A DNA stretch of 64,000 bases. Origin: an uncultured Gammaproteobacteria bacterium (lineage in GTDB: Bacteria > Patescibacteriota > Microgenomatia > UBA12405 > JAHJSD01). Position numbers and translations under genes: made by a program. Positions 23,999 through 29,920 of the stretch are shown here, in pieces; within the stretch, counting starts at the first letter, position 1; the number at the start of each line of letters is the position of its first letter. The notes under the pieces were generated by a model. The model was not told the DNA's origin. It saw nothing but the letters and a program-made list of their open reading frames with translations, and searched no databases. The stretch lies in assembly GCA_964428655.1 (NCBI GenBank), contig CAYRYE010000001.1, positions 218,258 to 282,257 on the forward strand, given 5' to 3'.

Positions 23999-24154
23999 TT
24001 TCAGGTCACCTCCTTTTTGTCACTCAAAGTTAAAAGTAAATTTCGTTTAACGTTTAGGTATATCTGAAGTTTAGCAAAAACCTTGAGTTTTATCAAAGAA
24101 ACCATGAAAAACAATTATTTCACTGATGACTAAACTTATATGTTATAATATAGG

Positions 24155-24595
24155 CTATGAGAATAATTGTGCTAGATAGCTGTCGAGGATTGGTTAGTGA
24201 AGTTACAGAAGGGCGGAAAAAAGGCCATGAATTGGGTCGACGTTTTGTTAGGAACCAGAGAGCAGTAGCTCAAAGCGGAGATCCGAAAATAAGGCGGGCG
24301 TGTGGTCCAGCCGCTCGAAGGGCGATCAGTGAAGGAATTTTAGGTGAACCCAATAGTAATGTAAGAGTAAGGGATTTTGTTGCTGACGCACTACTTCCGT
24401 CCGAAAGTCCGCTTAGCTTGTTAATACCCACAGGAAGAGAACTTCGGTCAAGGGTAAGAAGAGTGGGAAGAAACGTGGGGTTTGTGCAGGGAGTAAGTGA
24501 AGAGTTGGGTGGTTTAGGAAACATTGATCAATTGGTTCCGAGACCTAAACAAAGAGGAAGATAGCTTCATCAGTCTAAAGACAATTGTTTTTTTA
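24155..24595 (+). ncRNA. Candidate structured ncRNA (purine-rich, GC-enriched; contains GAAAGUCCG; identity unresolved: RNase P RNA or another housekeeping RNA?)
   Basis: Extended -10 TGTTATAAT at about 24139-24147. Downstream about 440 nt has GC content visibly above the surroundings. The only long ORF on either strand is Arg-rich and lacks an SD. The locus ends in a palindrome (ACAATTGT) plus U7. Confidence 0.35.
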
Positions 24596-24672
24596 ATTCT
24601 CCCTTCCCTATTTTTCAACCTTTTGGGTGAAAGGCAGAGGGGAATTAAAGGGGTGAATGCCTGAGTCCAAAA

Positions 24673-25095
24673 TTATTTTAGTAATCTTACTTTTTGAACT
24701 GTATTTTCAAAGTTTTTCATCAATTCGTGTTCCCAAATTCTAATAACTTTCCAAGTTTTCTTCTTGTAATATCTATTAACCTTTTTATCTCTTGTCTTAT
24801 TTCGTTCAATTTTGCCTGTCCAATATTTTTTATTTGTCGACGGCATTCTGCAATGTTTTTTACAACCGTGCCAAAAACAAGAATCAATAAAAATTACTGT
24901 TTTATATTTTTTCAAAACCAAATCAGGTTTTCCAAAATATTTTGTTGAATTTTTTCGATACCTAAGTCCAGCTTTCCAAATCGCTTTTCTAAAATCAACC
25001 TCAATCTTACTATCCCTACTCCTCACTTTTGACATTATTTCACTTCTTTGCTGCTTCGAAACTGTATCTGTCATCTCAGTCGTTAAAAAGCTCAA
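24673..25095 (-). CDS. vsr: Very-short-patch-repair endonuclease (Vsr, T:G mismatch-specific)
   Basis: IFIDSCFWHGC motif diagnostic of the Vsr family; overlaps the upstream gene by 20 nt. Confidence 0.88.
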   Translation of the reverse strand: MSFLTTEMTDTVSKQQRSEIMSKVRSRDSKIEVDFRKAIWKAGLRYRKNSTKYFGKPDLVLKKYKTVIFIDSCFWHGCKKHCRMPSTNKKYWTGKIERNKTRDKKVNRYYKKKTWKVIRIWEHELMKNFENTVQKVRLLK

Positions 25096-25837
25096 CAGGA
25101 TTTATTTTAAATTGAAGCATTTTTGAAGTATCTCGTCCCGCATCCCCTCCTTTCCTTTGCATTCCGATTCTCCCAATTTTTAAACTGCCTTGCGATGTTA
25201 TTTTAACATCGCCGTCTCCAAAAACATTCATGGCCTCGTTTATTGACTTCAGTATCCATCTACTACTGTCATTAATTTTTAGAATCACCAAAACCCAGTC
25301 GGCAGAAAATTCTCCCCTGCCCTTTAACAAATCGGAGACAATCAAAATTTTGTTATTTTCAAAAAATCTTACAACTTTATCTTGATCGTCTTTATTCATT
25401 TCTGTTAAAAACATTCTCCGCTTGTCTTTTAATCCCTTTTTGATCGGCTTTAGCTCCCCGGTAAAAAGCTTCAGGATTTTTGCGATATCTTCCGGGATGT
25501 TCCAAAGTTCAATATACTTATCAACCCATCTTTTGTCTATTTGGTTAAATCCTTGAGGATTGCTAACAAGTTTTACTTGCAGGTTTTGCAAGTCCTCTTG
25601 AGATTTTAACTTAATGATAATTTTAACTCTAACTTGAACATCAGCTTTGTACTGTCCGCGAACTTTTTCTGCTTTTACATATTCAATGTCTGAAATACTA
25701 TAACCCATAACTTCTAACCACTTTTGAGCCGTTTTGTCTTTTTTCCAATCGTTAAAACGATTAATTACGTTTTTTTCGTTTCTGAAACCGCCTTTTGCGA
25801 TTTGAGAACCTAATTTCGCTAACTGTTTTTTATTCAT
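25076..25837 (-). CDS. Probable Type II restriction endonuclease (cognate of the adjacent C5-MTase; size and layout resemble HhaI/HinP1I/MspI-type enzymes)
   Basis: Sits between the m5C-MTase and vsr with 4-nt and 20-nt junctions; no other recognisable family. The call rests on context. Confidence 0.45.
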   Translation of the reverse strand: MNKKQLAKLGSQIAKGGFRNEKNVINRFNDWKKDKTAQKWLEVMGYSISDIEYVKAEKVRGQYKADVQVRVKIIIKLKSQEDLQNLQVKLVSNPQGFNQIDKRWVDKYIELWNIPEDIAKILKLFTGELKPIKKGLKDKRRMFLTEMNKDDQDKVVRFFENNKILIVSDLLKGRGEFSADWVLVILKINDSSRWILKSINEAMNVFGDGDVKITSQGSLKIGRIGMQRKGGDAGRDTSKMLQFKINPVELFND

Positions 25838-25841
25838 AAAT

Positions 25842-26819
25842 TCAATTTAAGTAATTTAATAAACTTTGACCAAATGATTCAACGACATTTACGGTCATGG
25901 CGTTCCCCGCCTGACTTAACAAATCAGTGTCCGAAATTTTACCTTTGACTTTTTTTGACAACTTTTCGGGAAACCCTTGTAACAACAAAGATTCATATCC
26001 AGACAGTTTTCTAAATTTTCCGCCCCTCACATATAAAATACCATGCCTCCCTTTTCTAAGAGTTGGCACTTTGCCACGATATAGGCGCAAGTCAGATTGG
26101 CGAGTATCAATGACTAAAAATTGTTCTTTTAATAACTCATTGATTGAAAATTTACCTTTGTTGTATTTATTTTCCAAATATCTCAAAAAGGTTTGATAGG
26201 CTCTTTTCTTTTCATGAAACTCTAACTCATTAGTGTCAATCAAATATTCTTTTAATTCCGGTTTTTTAACTGATTGTGGAAAATTAAAAGCGTTACCGTT
26301 TCTTAAATCCTTCCGCACACCAATAAAATAAATTCTCTCCCTCATTTGCGGAACTCCATAGCACAAACTGCTTACTAGTTTCCAATAAACTTTATAACCA
26401 GCCTTTTCTAGCTCGCTTAAAATGTTTTTAAAAGACTGTCCATTGCCATGATTCAGTAAACCCTTTACATTTTCCAGAATGAAATATTTCAGATTTTTCG
26501 CTTTCATTATGTTTATCAACCCATAAATAATCTGACCTCGCGGATCGCACATTCCAGTTCTTTGTCCAATGACTGAGAAGGTTTGACATGGAAAGCCTGC
26601 AATCATCAAGTCAAAGCCCGGCAAGTCATCTGGAGTTATCTTCATCAAATCACCATAATTAGCTTCATTTTTTCCAAAAAATACCCTATATGTTTCTTCG
26701 GCTTTTCTATTAATTTCCGAAAAACCCACACATTTCATTCCACTATTTTCAAGACCAATTCTCCCCCCGCCAATACCAGCACAAAAATCTATAAATTTCA
26801 GTTTCTTGTTCAATGCCAT
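25842..26819 (-). CDS. DNA (cytosine-5)-methyltransferase
   Basis: Motif I FCAGIGG, IV GFPCQ, VI ENVKGL, VIII QMRERIY, X GNAM; an NHGNG stretch after motif VI resembles M.HhaI-like enzymes. Confidence 0.9.
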   Translation of the reverse strand: MALNKKLKFIDFCAGIGGGRIGLENSGMKCVGFSEINRKAEETYRVFFGKNEANYGDLMKITPDDLPGFDLMIAGFPCQTFSVIGQRTGMCDPRGQIIYGLINIMKAKNLKYFILENVKGLLNHGNGQSFKNILSELEKAGYKVYWKLVSSLCYGVPQMRERIYFIGVRKDLRNGNAFNFPQSVKKPELKEYLIDTNELEFHEKKRAYQTFLRYLENKYNKGKFSINELLKEQFLVIDTRQSDLRLYRGKVPTLRKGRHGILYVRGGKFRKLSGYESLLLQGFPEKLSKKVKGKISDTDLLSQAGNAMTVNVVESFGQSLLNYLN

Positions 26820-26890
26820 AATTTCATTTTACTAAAAATTTCTATTAATTCGTATTGCCTTTGTTTTTTTAAGACAAAACCAATAGAAAA

Positions 26891-27892
26891 CTAAGACTTA
26901 CTAGGTCTCTCCTTATTTTTTTTACGTGACCTTTCAACAAAGTGCTCAACTTTGTCTTTCCAACCAGAAATATGGGGGACTCTATTAAACTCCTTTCCAT
27001 GTCTACCAGACAAGAGCTCTGTTCTGGTGCACTTACTCAGCTCTTGCCAATTACTATACATAATATAAATAGCATTTCCGTATTCAACGTTTTCAAAAAC
27101 TACTAGATCTTTTTCTAAAAGTGCACCAAAGTAACGTTGTATTCCGCTCATTCCGTAAACAAGCTTTTTGGGCCTAAGTTTTTTAAAAAAGTCGTATCTT
27201 TCTCCAGCAGTCTTTTTCTTTTCCTCTGGAACGGGCGATTTATATCCGGCAAAAATTCTATCCACAACTTCTTCTCGGGTCCCTGGTGGAAGAATTATCC
27301 AATCAACCTTTGTTGTTTGTAAGTAATCATTGAATGAGGCATTTGCTTTTTGAACCCCGCACATGCCAATATTTTCCTGAAGGATATTTAAACACTTTAA
27401 CAGATCTCTTTCAAAATTTGGATCTTTTCTGTCAAGCACGCTATCTAGCTCAAATGTAAGCACATACTGCTTTTTATTCTTACCTTTTTCCTTGGTATTA
27501 ATTTTGACACAAATATGTTCTGGTCCATAAAAATCTCGTGGATATTTCCTGTATGGAAGGTCGACACGATGGGACCCATTGTACCAATCTCCATAATTAG
27601 GACATTCAACCGAATTATAATGAGTTTCCTTGGGGAGGTCTTTACGAATAACTGCATATCCATCGATATTTCTCCTGCTGTATTTTCCACTAGTCACTGG
27701 AGGAACCGCAGGATCTTCAGGAACAATGAGCTCCTCGTTGCTTAAATGAATGCCAAGATGTTTAAGTTCTCCTTGTAGTAACTGTTGAGAAGAAACAATT
27801 TTAAGACATGCTGCTACAATATAACGTTCATTGAGTCTTTTTAATTGCACGTGTACAAGTTTTGGAATCTTCCGAATATTTTTTTTAGCCAT
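26891..27892 (-). CDS. Hypothetical protein (333 aa), translationally coupled to lexA
   Basis: Start overlaps the lexA stop by 8 nt; no recognisable motif. Confidence 0.6.
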   Translation of the reverse strand: MAKKNIRKIPKLVHVQLKRLNERYIVAACLKIVSSQQLLQGELKHLGIHLSNEELIVPEDPAVPPVTSGKYSRRNIDGYAVIRKDLPKETHYNSVECPNYGDWYNGSHRVDLPYRKYPRDFYGPEHICVKINTKEKGKNKKQYVLTFELDSVLDRKDPNFERDLLKCLNILQENIGMCGVQKANASFNDYLQTTKVDWIILPPGTREEVVDRIFAGYKSPVPEEKKKTAGERYDFFKKLRPKKLVYGMSGIQRYFGALLEKDLVVFENVEYGNAIYIMYSNWQELSKCTRTELLSGRHGKEFNRVPHISGWKDKVEHFVERSRKKNKERPSKS

Positions 27893-28523
27893 GCTGGTTT
27901 TGATAATTAATAGGTATTACGCTAACAACAACACCCTGAACTTTAAAGTCATTTGTTAAAATAATTGGTTTATTTTTTGGGTTGGATGACTTTGGCTTCA
28001 ATACAATTGCATTCCCGACGTGATTATATTCCTTAATAGTGGTCTCATCGTCTATTAGAGCAACCACTCGATCTTTATTTTTGGCCGTTGATTGCTGACG
28101 AATCAATACCAAATTACCATCGTTAATGCCAGCCAAATCCATAGAATCTCCGGATGCACGGAGAATAAAGTATTTCGACCCGGATTTAAGCATAGACGTA
28201 GTGACTGGAATATTACCTTCTATGTTTTCTTCTGATAGTAAAGGCATACCGCACGCGACCATTCCAACAAGCGGAATGTCTTGGGTTTGAGCATGAGTTA
28301 AATTTGACTGAGGATCTTTTATCAATTGATATTTTCCGGATTTTATCTTTTTTAACACATTCTTTTTTTCAAGTTTTTCTAATATATCTTGAGCTGATCT
28401 AGGAGATTTATAGCCAAGAGCCTTCATAAGCTGACGCACTGATGGACTCGATCCATTATGCACCAAAGAATTTCTAATATGCCTTATTGCTTGAAACTCT
28501 TTTTTGCTTAGTTGTTTTTCCAT
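27885..28523 (-). CDS. lexA: LexA repressor (wHTH plus S24 peptidase)
   Basis: N-terminal LexA wHTH (LGYKSPRSAQDILEKLEKKNVL); C-terminal GDSM catalytic Ser and downstream Lys. Confidence 0.88.
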   Translation of the reverse strand: MEKQLSKKEFQAIRHIRNSLVHNGSSPSVRQLMKALGYKSPRSAQDILEKLEKKNVLKKIKSGKYQLIKDPQSNLTHAQTQDIPLVGMVACGMPLLSEENIEGNIPVTTSMLKSGSKYFILRASGDSMDLAGINDGNLVLIRQQSTAKNKDRVVALIDDETTIKEYNHVGNAIVLKPKSSNPKNKPIILTNDFKVQGVVVSVIPINYQNQHG

Positions 28524-28532
28524 ACTGTTTGT

Positions 28533-28561
28533 ATGTTACCGTATGTTTTAATCCTTGTCAA
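28533..28561 (-). promoter_or_regulatory. sigma70-like promoter for lexA (-35 TTGACA, 17-nt spacer, -10 TAACAT), overlapped by a GTATGTT-N3-GTATGTT direct repeat
   Basis: Read from the minus strand: TTGACAaggattaaaacatacggTAACATacaaacagtATG. Confidence 0.5.
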
Positions 28562-28746
28562 GAGTCCAAGTCGAATACTAAAAAAGCCATAAAACATCCC
28601 GCCAATGTAGTTGGCGGGATTCCTTAATTCCCCTCTAAAATAAAAACAAACTTATCTTTCCCCATACTCAACCTTCTTGGGGTTGAAAAATATTTTTTGA
28701 ATTGCGTATAACTAGTGCTTATGTGAATTGTTTTCGTAATTTCGTT

Positions 28747-28823
28747 TGGTCGGGGATGCCGGACTCGAACCGGCGGCCTCGCGCACCCCATGCGCGCGCG
28801 CTAACCAACTGCGCCAATCCCCG
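28747..28823 (-). tRNA. tRNA-Pro (anticodon GGG)
   Basis: 77-nt cloverleaf folded by hand: C1-G72 acceptor stem, GCGC D-stem, loop AUGGGGU (G37), TTCGAGT T-loop, encoded CCA. Confidence 0.85.
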
Positions 28824-28838
28824 TTTCATTGGTTGTAT

Positions 28839-28857
28839 TTTAACATGAATTGTGTTA
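28839..28857 (+). promoter_or_regulatory. Inverted repeat TTAACA-N7-TGTTAA upstream of recA (candidate SOS operator)
   Basis: Perfect 6-bp inverted repeat about 35 nt upstream of the recA ATG. Confidence 0.35.
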
Positions 28858-28891
28858 AAAAAAGTAATATCATTGATTCGTTGAAAGGGGT

Positions 28892-29920
28892 TTGATGACT
28901 GGAAAAAGAGACGAGAAAAAACAAAAGGCTCAAGCTGTGAAGATAGCAATGGCGCAGATTGAAAAGCAATATGGCAAAGGCTCGATAATGAAGATGGGGT
29001 TAAAACAGAGGAGATTGGAAGTAGATGCCATTTCCACAGGATGTTTGCCTTTGGATATTGCTTTGGGAGTTGGCGGTATTCCTCTTGGGAGAGTAACAGA
29101 GATTTTTGGTCCCGAAGCTTCGGGGAAAACAACTATTTGTCTTCATATTATTACTGAAGCTCAGAAAATGGGTGGATCGGCAGCCTTTATTGATGTTGAA
29201 CATGCTTTGGATCCGAGCAGGGCCAAAGCAATTGGTGTTAAACTGGAGGATCTGATTATTTCTCAACCCGATACTGGAGAGCAGGCTTTAGAAATTGTCG
29301 AGACTTTAGTTAGGTCAGGGGGATTAGATATTGTTGTTGTTGACTCAGTAGCCGCTTTAGTACCTAAAAGTGAAATTGAAGGCCAAATGGGTGATGCTTC
29401 TATTGGAGTTCAGGCAAGGTTGATGTCTCAAGCTTTGAGAAAATTAACGGGAGCAATTTCTAGATCAAAAACGGCTGTTATTTTTACTAATCAAATTAGG
29501 CACAAGATTGGAGTTTTCTTTGGTAATCCCGAAACGACTTCGGGTGGTTTGGCATTAAAGTTCTATTCTTCGGTGAGAATAGATTTAAGAAGAAGAGCAA
29601 GTATTAAAAATTCCCAGGGGGTAGTTATTGGCTCAATGCATAAAGCTAAGGTGGTTAAGAATAAGGTGGCGCCTCCATTTAGAGAGGCAGAGTTTGAGAT
29701 TTTAAATATTGGTGGAGTTTCCAAGATGGGCAGTTTGCTTGATGCAGGTATTCAGGTTAAAGTTGTTGTTCAGAGTGGAGCCTTCTATAAATACGGGAAA
29801 ATTAACCTGGGGCGAGGACGAGAAGCGGCAAAACAATTTTTGACAGGAAATCCTAAATTGGTTAAGGAAATTGAGAAGAAAATTTGGAATGTGATTGAAA
29901 GTGCTTCTTCAACCTTTTAG
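28892..29920 (+). CDS. recA: Recombinase RecA
   Basis: Walker [10 protein letters not shown]; L1/L2 loop regions; 342 aa. Confidence 0.95.

What the first reader, a model, noticed from the sequence alone, without database searches (positions are those of the whole stretch)
26891..27892. Uncharacterised 333-aa protein translationally coupled to LexA
Its ATG overlaps the lexA stop (ATGGCTAAAAAA... begins inside lexA). It is therefore almost certainly SOS-co-regulated, yet it shows none of the signatures of known SOS genes: no Y-family polymerase, SulA, YneA, ImuA/B or SRAP motifs. It carries several Cys/His (CPNYGDW, HICVK, GMCG). It sits directly upstream of the MTase, so it could be a divergent restriction subunit or specificity factor, or a new SOS effector.
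Basis: inference. Interest (0 to 1): 0.7.

Follow-up and report, generated by a model that had tools for sequence, protein, structure and literature searches.

The report
LexA-coupled orphan defence-island gene
The 333-aa gene fused to the end of lexA is real and belongs to a large, highly conserved, completely uncharacterised protein family that travels between bacteria in anti-phage defence islands and is repeatedly wired to DNA-damage-sensing repressors, so it is most likely a new damage-induced defence effector whose chemistry is still unknown.

Summary
A 333-aa ORF (26891-27892, minus strand) starts 8 nt inside the stop of a canonical-type lexA, and a HinP1I-type M/R/Vsr set follows it.

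The protein matches no model in Pfam, NCBIfam, PADLOC or PHROGs and no PDB sequence. A confident AlphaFold model (pLDDT 86) has no convincing structural relative in PDB or BFVD.

It is nevertheless a large family: 1,674 cluster representatives, about 320 aa, 45-65% identical across many phyla, and patchily distributed.

Of 107 non-redundant loci:
- 17 have a LexA-like S24 repressor immediately upstream on the same strand.
- 4 have a CapP/ImmA-type regulator.
- 8 sit in the psu-int defence hotspot of P4-like satellites, including E. coli.
- Others lie beside R-M, Shedu, CBASS, DUF2188 (PDC-S16) and recombinases.

The window's LexA belongs to a horizontally spread clade (60-84% identity across phyla). 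All five members I looked up head defence-like cargo, and four of them share the window's promoter/operator.

The Cys/His motifs are not conserved, and the "restriction subunit" idea is not supported.

Best reading: a mobile cargo effector, probably anti-phage, induced by DNA damage. Its biochemistry is unknown. Interest is moderately high, and the idea is testable in E. coli.

The parts
28533..28561 (-). Sigma-70-like promoter of the lexA operon (TTGACA, 17 nt, TAACAT)
   Evidence: Best promoter-like site in 24400-29200, matching 10 of 12 positions. The TTGAC hexamer is invariant in the alignment of upstream regions of related lexA genes (A3). It is a consensus match only; transcription has not been shown.
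28521..28535 (.). Candidate LexA operator: the palindrome CATAC-N5-GTATG, overlapping the lexA start codon
   Evidence: It is the only exact match in the 64 kb window (0.04 expected by chance). No further good copy appears at 2 mismatches, and none upstream of recA. The block CATACAGTAACATACA-N3-5-GTATG is conserved upstream of the window's lexA and five of six other lexA genes compared (50-84% identical proteins); the sixth, L181, is degenerate. Their downstream cargo differs. Binding is inferred and was not tested.
27885..28523 (-). lexA (212 aa): winged-helix DNA-binding domain plus S24 autopeptidase
   Evidence: TIGR00498 153 bits against a cut-off of 111; PF01726 and PF00717 match.
27885..27892 (-). 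8-nt overlap ATGGCTAA between the lexA stop and the ORF333 start (translational coupling)
   Evidence: Read directly from the sequence.
26891..27892 (-). ORF333: a member of a large uncharacterised family of about 320 aa, and the subject of the finding
   Evidence: No Pfam, NCBIfam, PADLOC, PHROG or PDB-sequence match. The profile finds 1,674 representatives. The AF2 model has pLDDT 86 and no convincing fold match. Residues conserved in at least 97% of 124 members include S72, N75, D85, H108, N169, Q172, E173, N174, R232, Y254, E267, N268, Y271, N273, Y276, S286, R290, R304, H307 and W311.
26820..26890 (-). 71-nt spacer between ORF333 and the MTase gene
   Evidence: The scan finds no terminator-like and no promoter-like site here. 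Read-through from the lexA promoter into M-R-vsr is therefore possible but not shown.
25842..26819 (-). C5 cytosine DNA methyltransferase (325 aa)
   Evidence: PF00145 at 4e-70; TIGR00675 dcm at 270 bits.
25076..25837 (-). R.HinP1I-family restriction endonuclease (253 aa)
   Evidence: PF11463 at 3.5e-89, matching the full length of the model.
24673..25095 (-). Vsr very-short-patch repair endonuclease (140 aa); its start overlaps the end of the R gene
   Evidence: PF03852 at 3.9e-29; TIGR00632 at 131 bits.
28747..28823 (-). tRNA-Pro(GGG) with a terminator-like hairpin (28596-28620), separating recA from the lexA promoter
   Evidence: ARAGORN, Rfam tRNA at 60.7 bits, terminator scan. No att-like repeat of the tRNA end was found on the far side of the cassette.

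Best explanation
ORF333 is a stand-alone cargo gene of horizontally mobile defence islands, here placed as the first cargo gene of a LexA-headed cassette (lexA-ORF333, then M.HinP1I-like/R.HinP1I/Vsr).

Proposed working:
1. LexA binds the CATAC-N5-GTATG palindrome that overlaps its own start codon and keeps the operon low.
2. DNA damage, or single-stranded DNA produced during phage replication, activates RecA. RecA stimulates LexA self-cleavage at C91-G92.
3. The lexA-ORF333 transcript rises, and ORF333 is translated by coupling to lexA.
4. The protein then acts as a self-contained effector, most likely anti-phage or abortive. It has a basic, probably nucleic-acid-binding surface and a conserved polar site (S72, N75, D85, H108, N169, Q172-E173-N174, E267-N268, H307).

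Shown: the gene, the coupling, family size and conservation, the absence of known domains or a known fold, its recurrent placement behind LexA-like or CapP/CapH-like regulators and inside defence hotspots, and the conserved operator-like sequence.

Inferred: LexA binding, damage induction, the defence role and any catalytic activity.
For: Gene and coupling.

Family: 407 close homologues, 1,674 representatives all about 320 aa with no fusions among the best 150 listed, found in many phyla.

Mobility and defence context:
- Eight non-redundant loci sit between psu and int of P4-like satellites, which is the known defence hotspot. One is E. coli NZ_CP104117.1, where the gene lies next to PDC-M18A/B (the hotspot concept and PDC-M18 are in PMC11754643).
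- Neighbours include XamI/Eco57I, Dam/PDDEXK and a serine recombinase; N6_N4 MTases; Shedu SduA_C directly downstream; CBASS patatin plus SMODS; and HerA, capP, E1-E2 and RmrA.
- The family is nearly absent from phage genomes: 1 weak hit in 50,697 records. It occurs on plasmids.

Damage-sensor wiring:
- A LexA-like S24 gene lies immediately upstream on the same strand in 17 of 107 loci. CapP/ImmA lies within 1.5 kb in 4 loci.
- The LexA-linked members fall into two separate branches of the family tree.
- In L011, L106 and Segatella copri, a divergent CapP/HTH pair controls an operon whose only cargo is (DUF2188 plus) the family member. This matches the "DUF2188 + hypothetical protein" CapH/CapP systems noted in bioRxiv 10.1101/2022.04.27.489752.

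The LexA clade:
- Homologues 60-84% identical occur in Omnitrophota, Nitrospira and Patescibacteria.
- All five looked up head defence-like cargo: SMODS, this family, DUF3892, SLFN-HNH-MTases, and ThsB_TIR plus R-M.
- The promoter/operator is conserved in most of them.
Against: - There is no experimental or homology-based evidence of any activity. The defence role rests on guilt by association.
- 58 of 107 loci show none of the recurrent partners, and some look like ordinary chromosomal neighbourhoods, for example between PFOR and a ParA-like gene.
- Identity of 45-65% across phyla, higher than that of the partner LexA (28-57%), is unusually high for a defence protein. It could point to a conserved cellular function instead.
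- In the window the cassette has no recombinase and no att repeat and sits next to recA. This lexA could therefore simply be the cell's own SOS repressor.
- Enrichment of defence genes around the family was not tested against a random-gene background.
Confidence: 0.55

Rival explanations
1. ORF333 is a genuine chromosomal SOS-regulon function for DNA repair, damage tolerance or cell-cycle arrest. It would be co-expressed with LexA as a housekeeping stress protein and would not be a defence gene.
For: It is coupled to a TIGR00498-level lexA that lies next to recA. It is strongly conserved, more so than LexA itself. Both types of associated regulator respond to DNA damage. The protein is basic, with a median family pI of 8.8.
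Against: Its distribution is patchy, across many phyla, in P4 hotspots, on plasmids and in recombinase-bearing islands. It is present in only 7 of 5,426 complete E. coli genomes. It matches no known SOS family: Y-family polymerases, SulA, YneA, ImuA/B, SRAP and others would all have been caught by Pfam or NCBIfam. The candidate operator is not found at recA or anywhere else in the window.
Confidence: 0.15
2. ORF333 is a maintenance or regulatory factor of the mobile element that carries the LexA-like repressor. Candidates include an anti-repressor, a co-regulator, a recombination directionality factor or a replication factor. It would be expressed from the repressor operon as rexAB is with lambda cI.
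For: It sits directly after the element's S24 repressor and before variable cargo in several serine-recombinase elements. Small putative regulators (69-77 aa, or DUF2188) are interleaved between the two genes.
Against: It is the sole cargo of CapP/HTH-controlled operons. In P4 it sits in the variable hotspot and not among the core genes. In more than half of the loci it occurs with none of the recurrent partners, although recombinases were not tallied systematically. No HTH or recombinase-like domain was detected.
Confidence: 0.12
3. LexA and ORF333 form a toxin-antitoxin-like pair. ORF333 would be a toxin held in check by LexA, either directly or through transcription, and released when LexA self-cleaves.
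For: The overlapping stop and start codons and the order repressor-first, effector-second resemble type II TA operons. The two genes are partly co-inherited (Pearson r = 0.35 between pairwise identities).
Against: Most family members have no adjacent LexA-like or other conserved small partner (58 of 107). A constitutively active toxin that needs an antitoxin would not survive in that state. The partners are interchangeable: LexA-like, CapP/HTH, the 228-aa protein, or PDC-M18.
Confidence: 0.06
4. ORF333 is an extra subunit of the adjacent R-M system, serving in specificity or control, or acting as a second nuclease.
For: It lies 71 nt upstream of the C5 MTase with no predicted terminator between them. 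DNA MTases are frequent neighbours of family members, and a LexA::C5-MTase fusion exists near one member.
Against: The M, R.HinP1I and Vsr set is complete by itself. No REase, HsdS or C-protein signature was found. The neighbouring MTases are of unrelated classes, and most loci have none. In the P4 hotspot and in S. copri the gene has no R-M partner.
Confidence: 0.03

Closest known systems
CapH/CapP-regulated immune operons (CBASS and others; Lau et al., bioRxiv 10.1101/2022.04.27.489752), including their "DUF2188 + hypothetical protein" systems
   Same: A DNA-damage-responsive repressor switch is placed at the head of a defence operon. Several relatives of ORF333 are the cargo of a divergent M78/CapP plus HTH pair, often together with DUF2188.
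   Different: In the window the switch is a one-protein LexA (HTH plus a self-cleaving S24 domain), not an HTH repressor with a separate metallopeptidase. The cargo protein has no described function. I could not check whether the "hypothetical proteins" of the published system belong to this family.
Lambda cI-rexA-rexB, where exclusion genes are co-transcribed with an S24 repressor
   Same: The effector gene is in the same operon as, and downstream of, a self-cleaving HTH-S24 repressor on a mobile element.
   Different: There is no sequence or fold similarity to RexA or RexB. The gene is a single one, and the repressor is of LexA type (TIGR00498), not CI type.
umuD-umuC and other LexA-controlled cassettes of mobile elements
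   Same: An S24-domain gene is translationally coupled to the next gene and is expected to be induced by DNA damage.
   Different: ORF333 is not a Y-family polymerase: no IMS or any other Pfam hit. The upstream protein keeps its DNA-binding domain.
Single-gene cargo of the P4 satellite psu-int defence hotspot, and the PADLOC candidates PDC-M18 and PDC-S16
   Same: The E. coli homologue occupies this hotspot, directly after PDC-M18A/B. DUF2188 (PDC-S16) is a recurrent neighbour.
   Different: The family itself has no model in PADLOC-DB 2.0, and no paper in the held library cites its accessions.

Membership tests
Known SOS effectors (Y-family polymerases, SulA, YneA, ImuA/ImuB, SRAP/YedK, DinI, YebG) | Match to the family's profile or its signature domain | tested here: not met
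   Pfam and NCBIfam at E up to 1 give only noise for the window protein. Pfam gives only noise for all 40 aligned members.
Restriction-modification subunit (REase, specificity or C protein) | A nuclease, TRD or HTH signature, and conserved linkage to a cognate MTase | tested here: not met
Described anti-phage defence proteins (PADLOC-DB 2.0) | Match to any of the 5,027 models | tested here: not met
   No families at E up to 1, either for the window protein or for the E. coli homologue.
Defence-island or hotspot cargo (an operational class, not a homology family) | Recurrent location in known defence hotspots and next to known defence systems on mobile elements | tested here: met
   P4 psu-int hotspot. 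R-M, Shedu, CBASS, capP and HerA as neighbours, with recombinases. No statistical background was computed.
Defence-island or hotspot cargo (an operational class, not a homology family) | Demonstrated protection against phage | not testable with these tools
   This needs plaque assays with the E. coli or S. copri homologue.
LexA (the upstream gene) | LexA-type winged-helix domain, S24 domain with a Ser/Lys dyad, and a cleavage site | tested here: met
   TIGR00498 153 bits (cut-off 111), PF01726 and PF00717. C91-G92, S127 and K164 align with A84-G85, S119 and K156 of E. coli LexA.
LexA (the upstream gene) | Controls a cellular SOS regulon (recA, uvr and others) through a shared operator | tested here: inconclusive
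   The candidate operator occurs only at lexA within the 64 kb window and is not found upstream of recA. The rest of the genome is not available.
Type II toxin-antitoxin toxin | An obligatory adjacent antitoxin gene | tested here: not met
   58 of 107 loci have no recurrent partner, and the partners that do occur are heterogeneous.

The most novel reading that the evidence does not exclude
ORF333 founds a new-fold family of single-protein anti-phage effectors that are switched on by DNA damage. The window also exemplifies a wider module that, as far as I could find, has not been described. In it, horizontally mobile LexA-type repressors with a conserved CATAC-N4-5-GTATG operator head interchangeable defence cargo (this family, TIR, SMODS, R-M, Shedu, DUF3892) in Patescibacteria, Omnitrophota, Nitrospirota and other phyla. 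This would be a one-protein counterpart of CapH/CapP.
Probability: 0.4. Interest if true: 0.78.

Novelty: new variant of a known kind. Interest (0 to 1): 0.66.

Why it matters
If the reading is right, a family with more than 1,600 sequence clusters, present in E. coli, Segatella copri and many uncultured phyla, would be a new anti-phage effector with no known fold or chemistry. That is a likely source of new biochemistry.

It would also show that canonical-type LexA proteins are used as portable damage-sensing switches for defence cassettes. This would link the SOS signal to immunity in lineages such as CPR and Omnitrophota, where almost nothing has been tested.

The idea is directly testable, because the E. 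coli homologue sits in a P4 hotspot and can be cloned and challenged with standard phage panels.

Tried and rejected
Searches that found nothing:
- Profile searches of the protein against Pfam, NCBIfam, PADLOC and PHROGs.
- Pfam on all 40 aligned members.
- PDB sequences, with a single sequence and with a profile.

Resources I could not use:
- The AFDB library was not available.
- Burroughs & Aravind 2020, the source of the DUF2188 defence prediction, is not held.
- No paper in the held library cites the E. coli accessions.

Other tests:
- hhalign of the family against its recurrent partners (PDC-M18A, PDC-M18B, the 228-aa protein, DUF2188) shows no relationship.
- I looked by eye for NTase, PD-(D/E)XK, GIY-YIG, 2H, Fic, RES and ART motifs. 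None fits the conserved residues.
- A Cys/His metal site is rejected on conservation.
- There is no att-like repeat of the tRNA-Pro end.
- GC content does not mark the cassette as foreign: 0.30-0.37 against 0.385 for the window.
- There is no second copy of the candidate operator in the window.
- The 328-aa gene divergent from the Omnitrophota lexA is not a family member.
- The GC-rich patch at 24150-24600 gives no Rfam hit and no folding signal.

Full report
**1. The observation**

The region carries five tightly packed genes on the minus strand:
- lexA, 27885..28523
- the 333-aa ORF, 26891..27892
- a C5 DNA methyltransferase, 25842..26819
- an R.HinP1I-family endonuclease, 25076..25837
- vsr, 24673..25095

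The ORF's ATG lies inside the end of lexA, and the two genes share 8 nt, ATGGCTAA. The upstream gene passes the NCBIfam LexA equivalog (153 bits against a cut-off of 111) and has both Pfam LexA domains. Aligned with E. coli LexA, it keeps a Cys-Gly cleavage site (C91-G92), the nucleophile S127 and the base K164.

No terminator-like hairpin follows lexA or the ORF. The only strong promoter-like site is TTGACA-17-TAACAT just upstream of lexA. tRNA-Pro and a terminator separate this promoter from the divergent recA. The same five-gene arrangement, with an identical ORF333 protein, is seen on contigs from four samples.

**2. The protein has no known relative, yet belongs to a very large family**

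At E up to 1, Pfam, NCBIfam, PADLOC and PHROGs return nothing credible. The same holds when all 40 aligned members are scanned against Pfam. Sequence and profile searches of the PDB find nothing.

An AlphaFold2 model built on a 40-sequence alignment is confident (mean pLDDT 86, pTM 0.59). Fold searches gave:
- Foldseek against the PDB: nothing better than E = 0.06.
- Foldseek against BFVD: a best TM-score of 0.11.

The AFDB library was unavailable.

In contrast, the word-indexed search finds 407 homologues. The best 120 are nearly all full length (most 319-353 aa; a few 290-299 aa), 48-65% identical, and all called "hypothetical". A profile scan of 1.84 billion cluster representatives finds 1,674 at E <= 1e-3 and 285 at E <= 1e-30. 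All are about 320 aa, and there are no domain fusions among the best 150.

Residues conserved in at least 97% of 124 diverse members are mostly polar or aromatic:
- S72, N75, D85, H108
- the LNxLQEN helix (N169, Q172, E173, N174)
- R232, Y254
- the FENxxYGNAxY hairpin (E267, N268, Y271, N273, Y276)
- S286, R290, R304, H307, W311

This pattern fits an enzyme or a specific ligand-binding site. It fits none of the catalytic motifs I checked by eye.

The family is basic, with a median pI of 8.8.

**3. Where the family lives**

One-genome-per-species scanning found 69 loci. They come from Acidobacteriota, many Patescibacteria, Bacteroidota, Desulfobacterota, Omnitrophota, Planctomycetota, Verrucomicrobiota, Nitrospirota, Cyanobacteria, Chloroflexota, Gemmatimonadota, Alpha- and Gammaproteobacteria and others. 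The metagenome scan gave 227 more matches, of which 80 were kept.

The family is almost absent from phage genomes: one weak partial hit in 50,697 records. It has four hits in IMG/VR; at least two of these lie in P4-like satellite contexts. It occurs on 16 plasmids.

I called ORFs in all loci, clustered the neighbours, and built HMMs for the recurrent ones. The tally for 107 non-redundant members with at least 900 bp of upstream sequence:

| Neighbour | Loci |
|---|---|
| LexA-like S24 gene within 450 bp upstream, same strand | 17 |
| M78/ImmA (CapP-like) gene within 1.5 kb | 4 |
| Unknown 228-aa protein directly upstream | 14 |
| PDC-M18B directly upstream | 8 |
| DUF2188 adjacent | 8 |
| None of these | 58 |

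A random sample of 150 flanking ORFs is heterogeneous. It contains integrases, IS66, relaxase/AAA_30, HerA, ResIII, MTases, PD-(D/E)XK, Schlafen/AlbA_2, capP (2.5e-61), E1-E2 and RmrA.

Four contexts are the most informative.

(a) **The P4 hotspot.** In E. coli (7 of 5,426 complete genomes) and related metagenome contigs, the homologue lies between psu and int of P4-like satellites. It comes right after the PADLOC candidate pair PDC-M18A/B. This interval is the recognised defence hotspot of P4 satellites, where PDC-M18 normally occurs as a two-gene system (PMC11754643). The family member is therefore an additional cargo gene.

(b) **Serine-recombinase elements.** In Patescibacteria-type contigs the order is serine recombinase ... 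ParB-MTase (divergent), then S24 repressor, DUF2188 or a 69-aa ORF, and the family member. Shedu (SduA_C) or other cargo follows.

(c) **The closest relatives.** Those 63% and 57% identical show LexA-DUF2188-member beside an N6/N4 MTase. They also show XamI/Eco57I (divergent), LexA-member-DUF2188, PDDEXK/Dam and a serine recombinase.

(d) **CapP-controlled operons.** A divergent CapP-like peptidase plus HTH pair faces an operon made only of DUF2188 plus the member (L011, L106) or of the member alone (L154). The latter arrangement also occurs on the Segatella copri DSM 18205 plasmid, WP_006848614.1. This matches the "DUF2188 + hypothetical protein" operons that Lau et al. list among CapH/CapP-regulated systems. 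In these loci the family member is the regulated output, not a regulator.

One Ignavibacteriae locus has LexA-like, patatin, SMODS, a 147-aa ORF, DUF2188 and the member on one strand.

**4. The LexA partner**

On a neighbour-joining tree, LexA-linked members fall into two separate parts of the family: the window's own clade and a second, mostly Patescibacteria clade. Across LexA-member pairs, the member is more conserved than its LexA (46-63% against 28-57% identity to the window proteins). Their divergences correlate only weakly (Pearson 0.35; Spearman not significant). The pairing is therefore recurrent but reshuffled.

The window's LexA has homologues at 60-84% identity in Omnitrophota, Nitrospira and Patescibacteria. 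From general knowledge, that is far above the 30-45% usual for vertical LexA divergence between phyla, so this lexA lineage itself appears to be horizontally mobile.

I looked up five of these homologues. Each is followed by defence-type cargo:

| Locus | LexA identity | Downstream cargo |
|---|---|---|
| L177 | 84% | 181-aa protein plus a weak SMODS-like protein |
| L178 | 69% | a member of this family |
| L179 | 64% | DUF3892 and a resolvase; Vsr, C5 MTase and SIR2 upstream |
| L181 | 61% | Schlafen/AlbA_2, HNH, two MTases |
| L183 | 61% | divergent serine recombinase; 67-aa ORF, ThsB_TIR, C5 MTase, Alw26I-type REase |

Upstream regions share a conserved architecture: TTGAC, about 15 nt, CATACAGTAACATACA, N3-5, GTATG, then the ATG. 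It is clear in the window, L177, L178, L179 and L183 and in the more distant L091; L181 is degenerate. In the window the core palindrome CATAC-N5-GTATG overlaps the lexA start codon. It is unique in 64 kb (0.04 expected by chance). No good second copy exists, and none lies upstream of recA.

I infer that LexA autoregulates this promoter and with it the coupled ORF. Whether the same LexA also runs a cellular SOS regulon cannot be decided from this window.

**5. Interpretation**

The best-supported reading is that ORF333 is mobile defence-island cargo. Here it is the first cargo gene of a LexA-headed cassette, induced when RecA-stimulated LexA cleavage relieves repression.

Two unrelated damage sensors, one-protein LexA-like repressors and two-protein CapP/HTH pairs, have been recruited to the same cargo. 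That is the strongest argument for damage-induced expression. The P4 hotspot, the plasmid and recombinase contexts and the company of R-M, Shedu, CBASS and PDC families are the arguments for a conflict or defence role.

Because the gene often stands alone, it must be self-sufficient and conditionally active. That argues against a classical toxin needing an antitoxin, and against a subunit of the neighbouring R-M system. The R-M set here is complete and is not conserved with the family.

What the protein does chemically is unknown. I commit only to a nucleic-acid-directed effector using the conserved polar cluster, with low confidence.

The main rival is a true SOS repair or tolerance function. 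It is favoured by the unusually high conservation and by the recA neighbourhood. It is disfavoured by the patchy, mobile distribution.

**6. Comparison with known systems, and novelty**

In its logic the locus resembles CapH/CapP-controlled immune operons, cI-rexAB and LexA-controlled mobile cassettes. It is a member of none of them by homology (see the membership table).

The protein family has no Pfam, NCBIfam, PADLOC or PHROG model, and I found no paper on it in the held library. I rate it a new variant of a known kind: a damage-inducible defence cassette with an undescribed effector family and a LexA-type switch.

Interest is moderately high, because the hypothesis can be tested at once in E. 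coli, and because LexA-headed defence cassettes would link the SOS signal to immunity in poorly studied phyla.

Noticed in passing
L083:10467-12041 (also L084 and L085): A 524-aa protein fuses LexA_DNA_bind, Peptidase_S24 and a C5 DNA methylase domain in one polypeptide. It lies a few kb from a family member and DUF2188. A self-cleaving repressor fused to an MTase looks like an unusual way to control an R-M system or an orphan MTase.
   Followed up: no
L040:2407-6975: In an Ignavibacteriae MAG, six genes lie on one strand: LexA-like, patatin phospholipase, SMODS/CD-NTase, a 147-aa ORF, DUF2188 and a family member. This is a CBASS operon headed by a LexA-like repressor instead of CapH/CapP.
   Followed up: partly
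L177, L179, L181, L183 (loci of LexA homologues 61-84% identical to the window's): Near-identical lexA promoter/operator regions precede quite different cargo: SMODS-like, DUF3892, Schlafen-HNH-MTases, and ThsB_TIR plus a type IIS-like R-M. A large serine recombinase is often adjacent. This suggests that a LexA-headed cargo slot is a general feature.
   Followed up: partly
L023:5276-5986, L046:5301-5987 and 12 other loci: A conserved 228-aa protein with no Pfam, NCBIfam or PADLOC hit lies directly upstream of family members in a mostly alphaproteobacterial and Patescibacteria clade. It carries an R-x4-H string (RNILTHR) reminiscent of HEPN RNases. This was seen by eye only and was not tested.
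   Followed up: partly
window 24150-24600: A patch richer in GC (0.44-0.47 against 0.385 for the window) and G-rich on the plus strand lies between vsr and the MazG-like gene. It is covered by a 135-aa ORF with no Pfam hit. Rfam finds nothing, and the folding z-score is -0.48. It remains unexplained.
   Followed up: partly
L175 (Lactococcus cremoris SK11 plasmid 5, 4299-5210) and L176 (Acinetobacter johnsonii 8.6-kb plasmid): Distant homologues (24-25% identity, E = 1e-9 to 3e-10) sit on small plasmids. The lactococcal one lies directly after a DEAD/DEAH helicase of about 1,560 aa. The Acinetobacter one lies next to BrnT/BrnA.
   Followed up: no
L006:3718-3933, L173:7682-7891, L183:5640-5843: A small ORF of 67-71 aa with no Pfam hit is often inserted between the LexA-like gene and the first cargo gene. 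Only the L006-type ORFs were clustered together; the others are grouped by size and position. The slot is occupied by DUF2188 in other loci and is empty in the window.
   Followed up: no
window 28824-28891: Upstream of recA there is a different 6-bp-arm palindrome, TTAACA-N7-TGTTAA. I read it by eye from the sequence. It is unrelated to the lexA operator candidate, and its significance was not tested.
   Followed up: no
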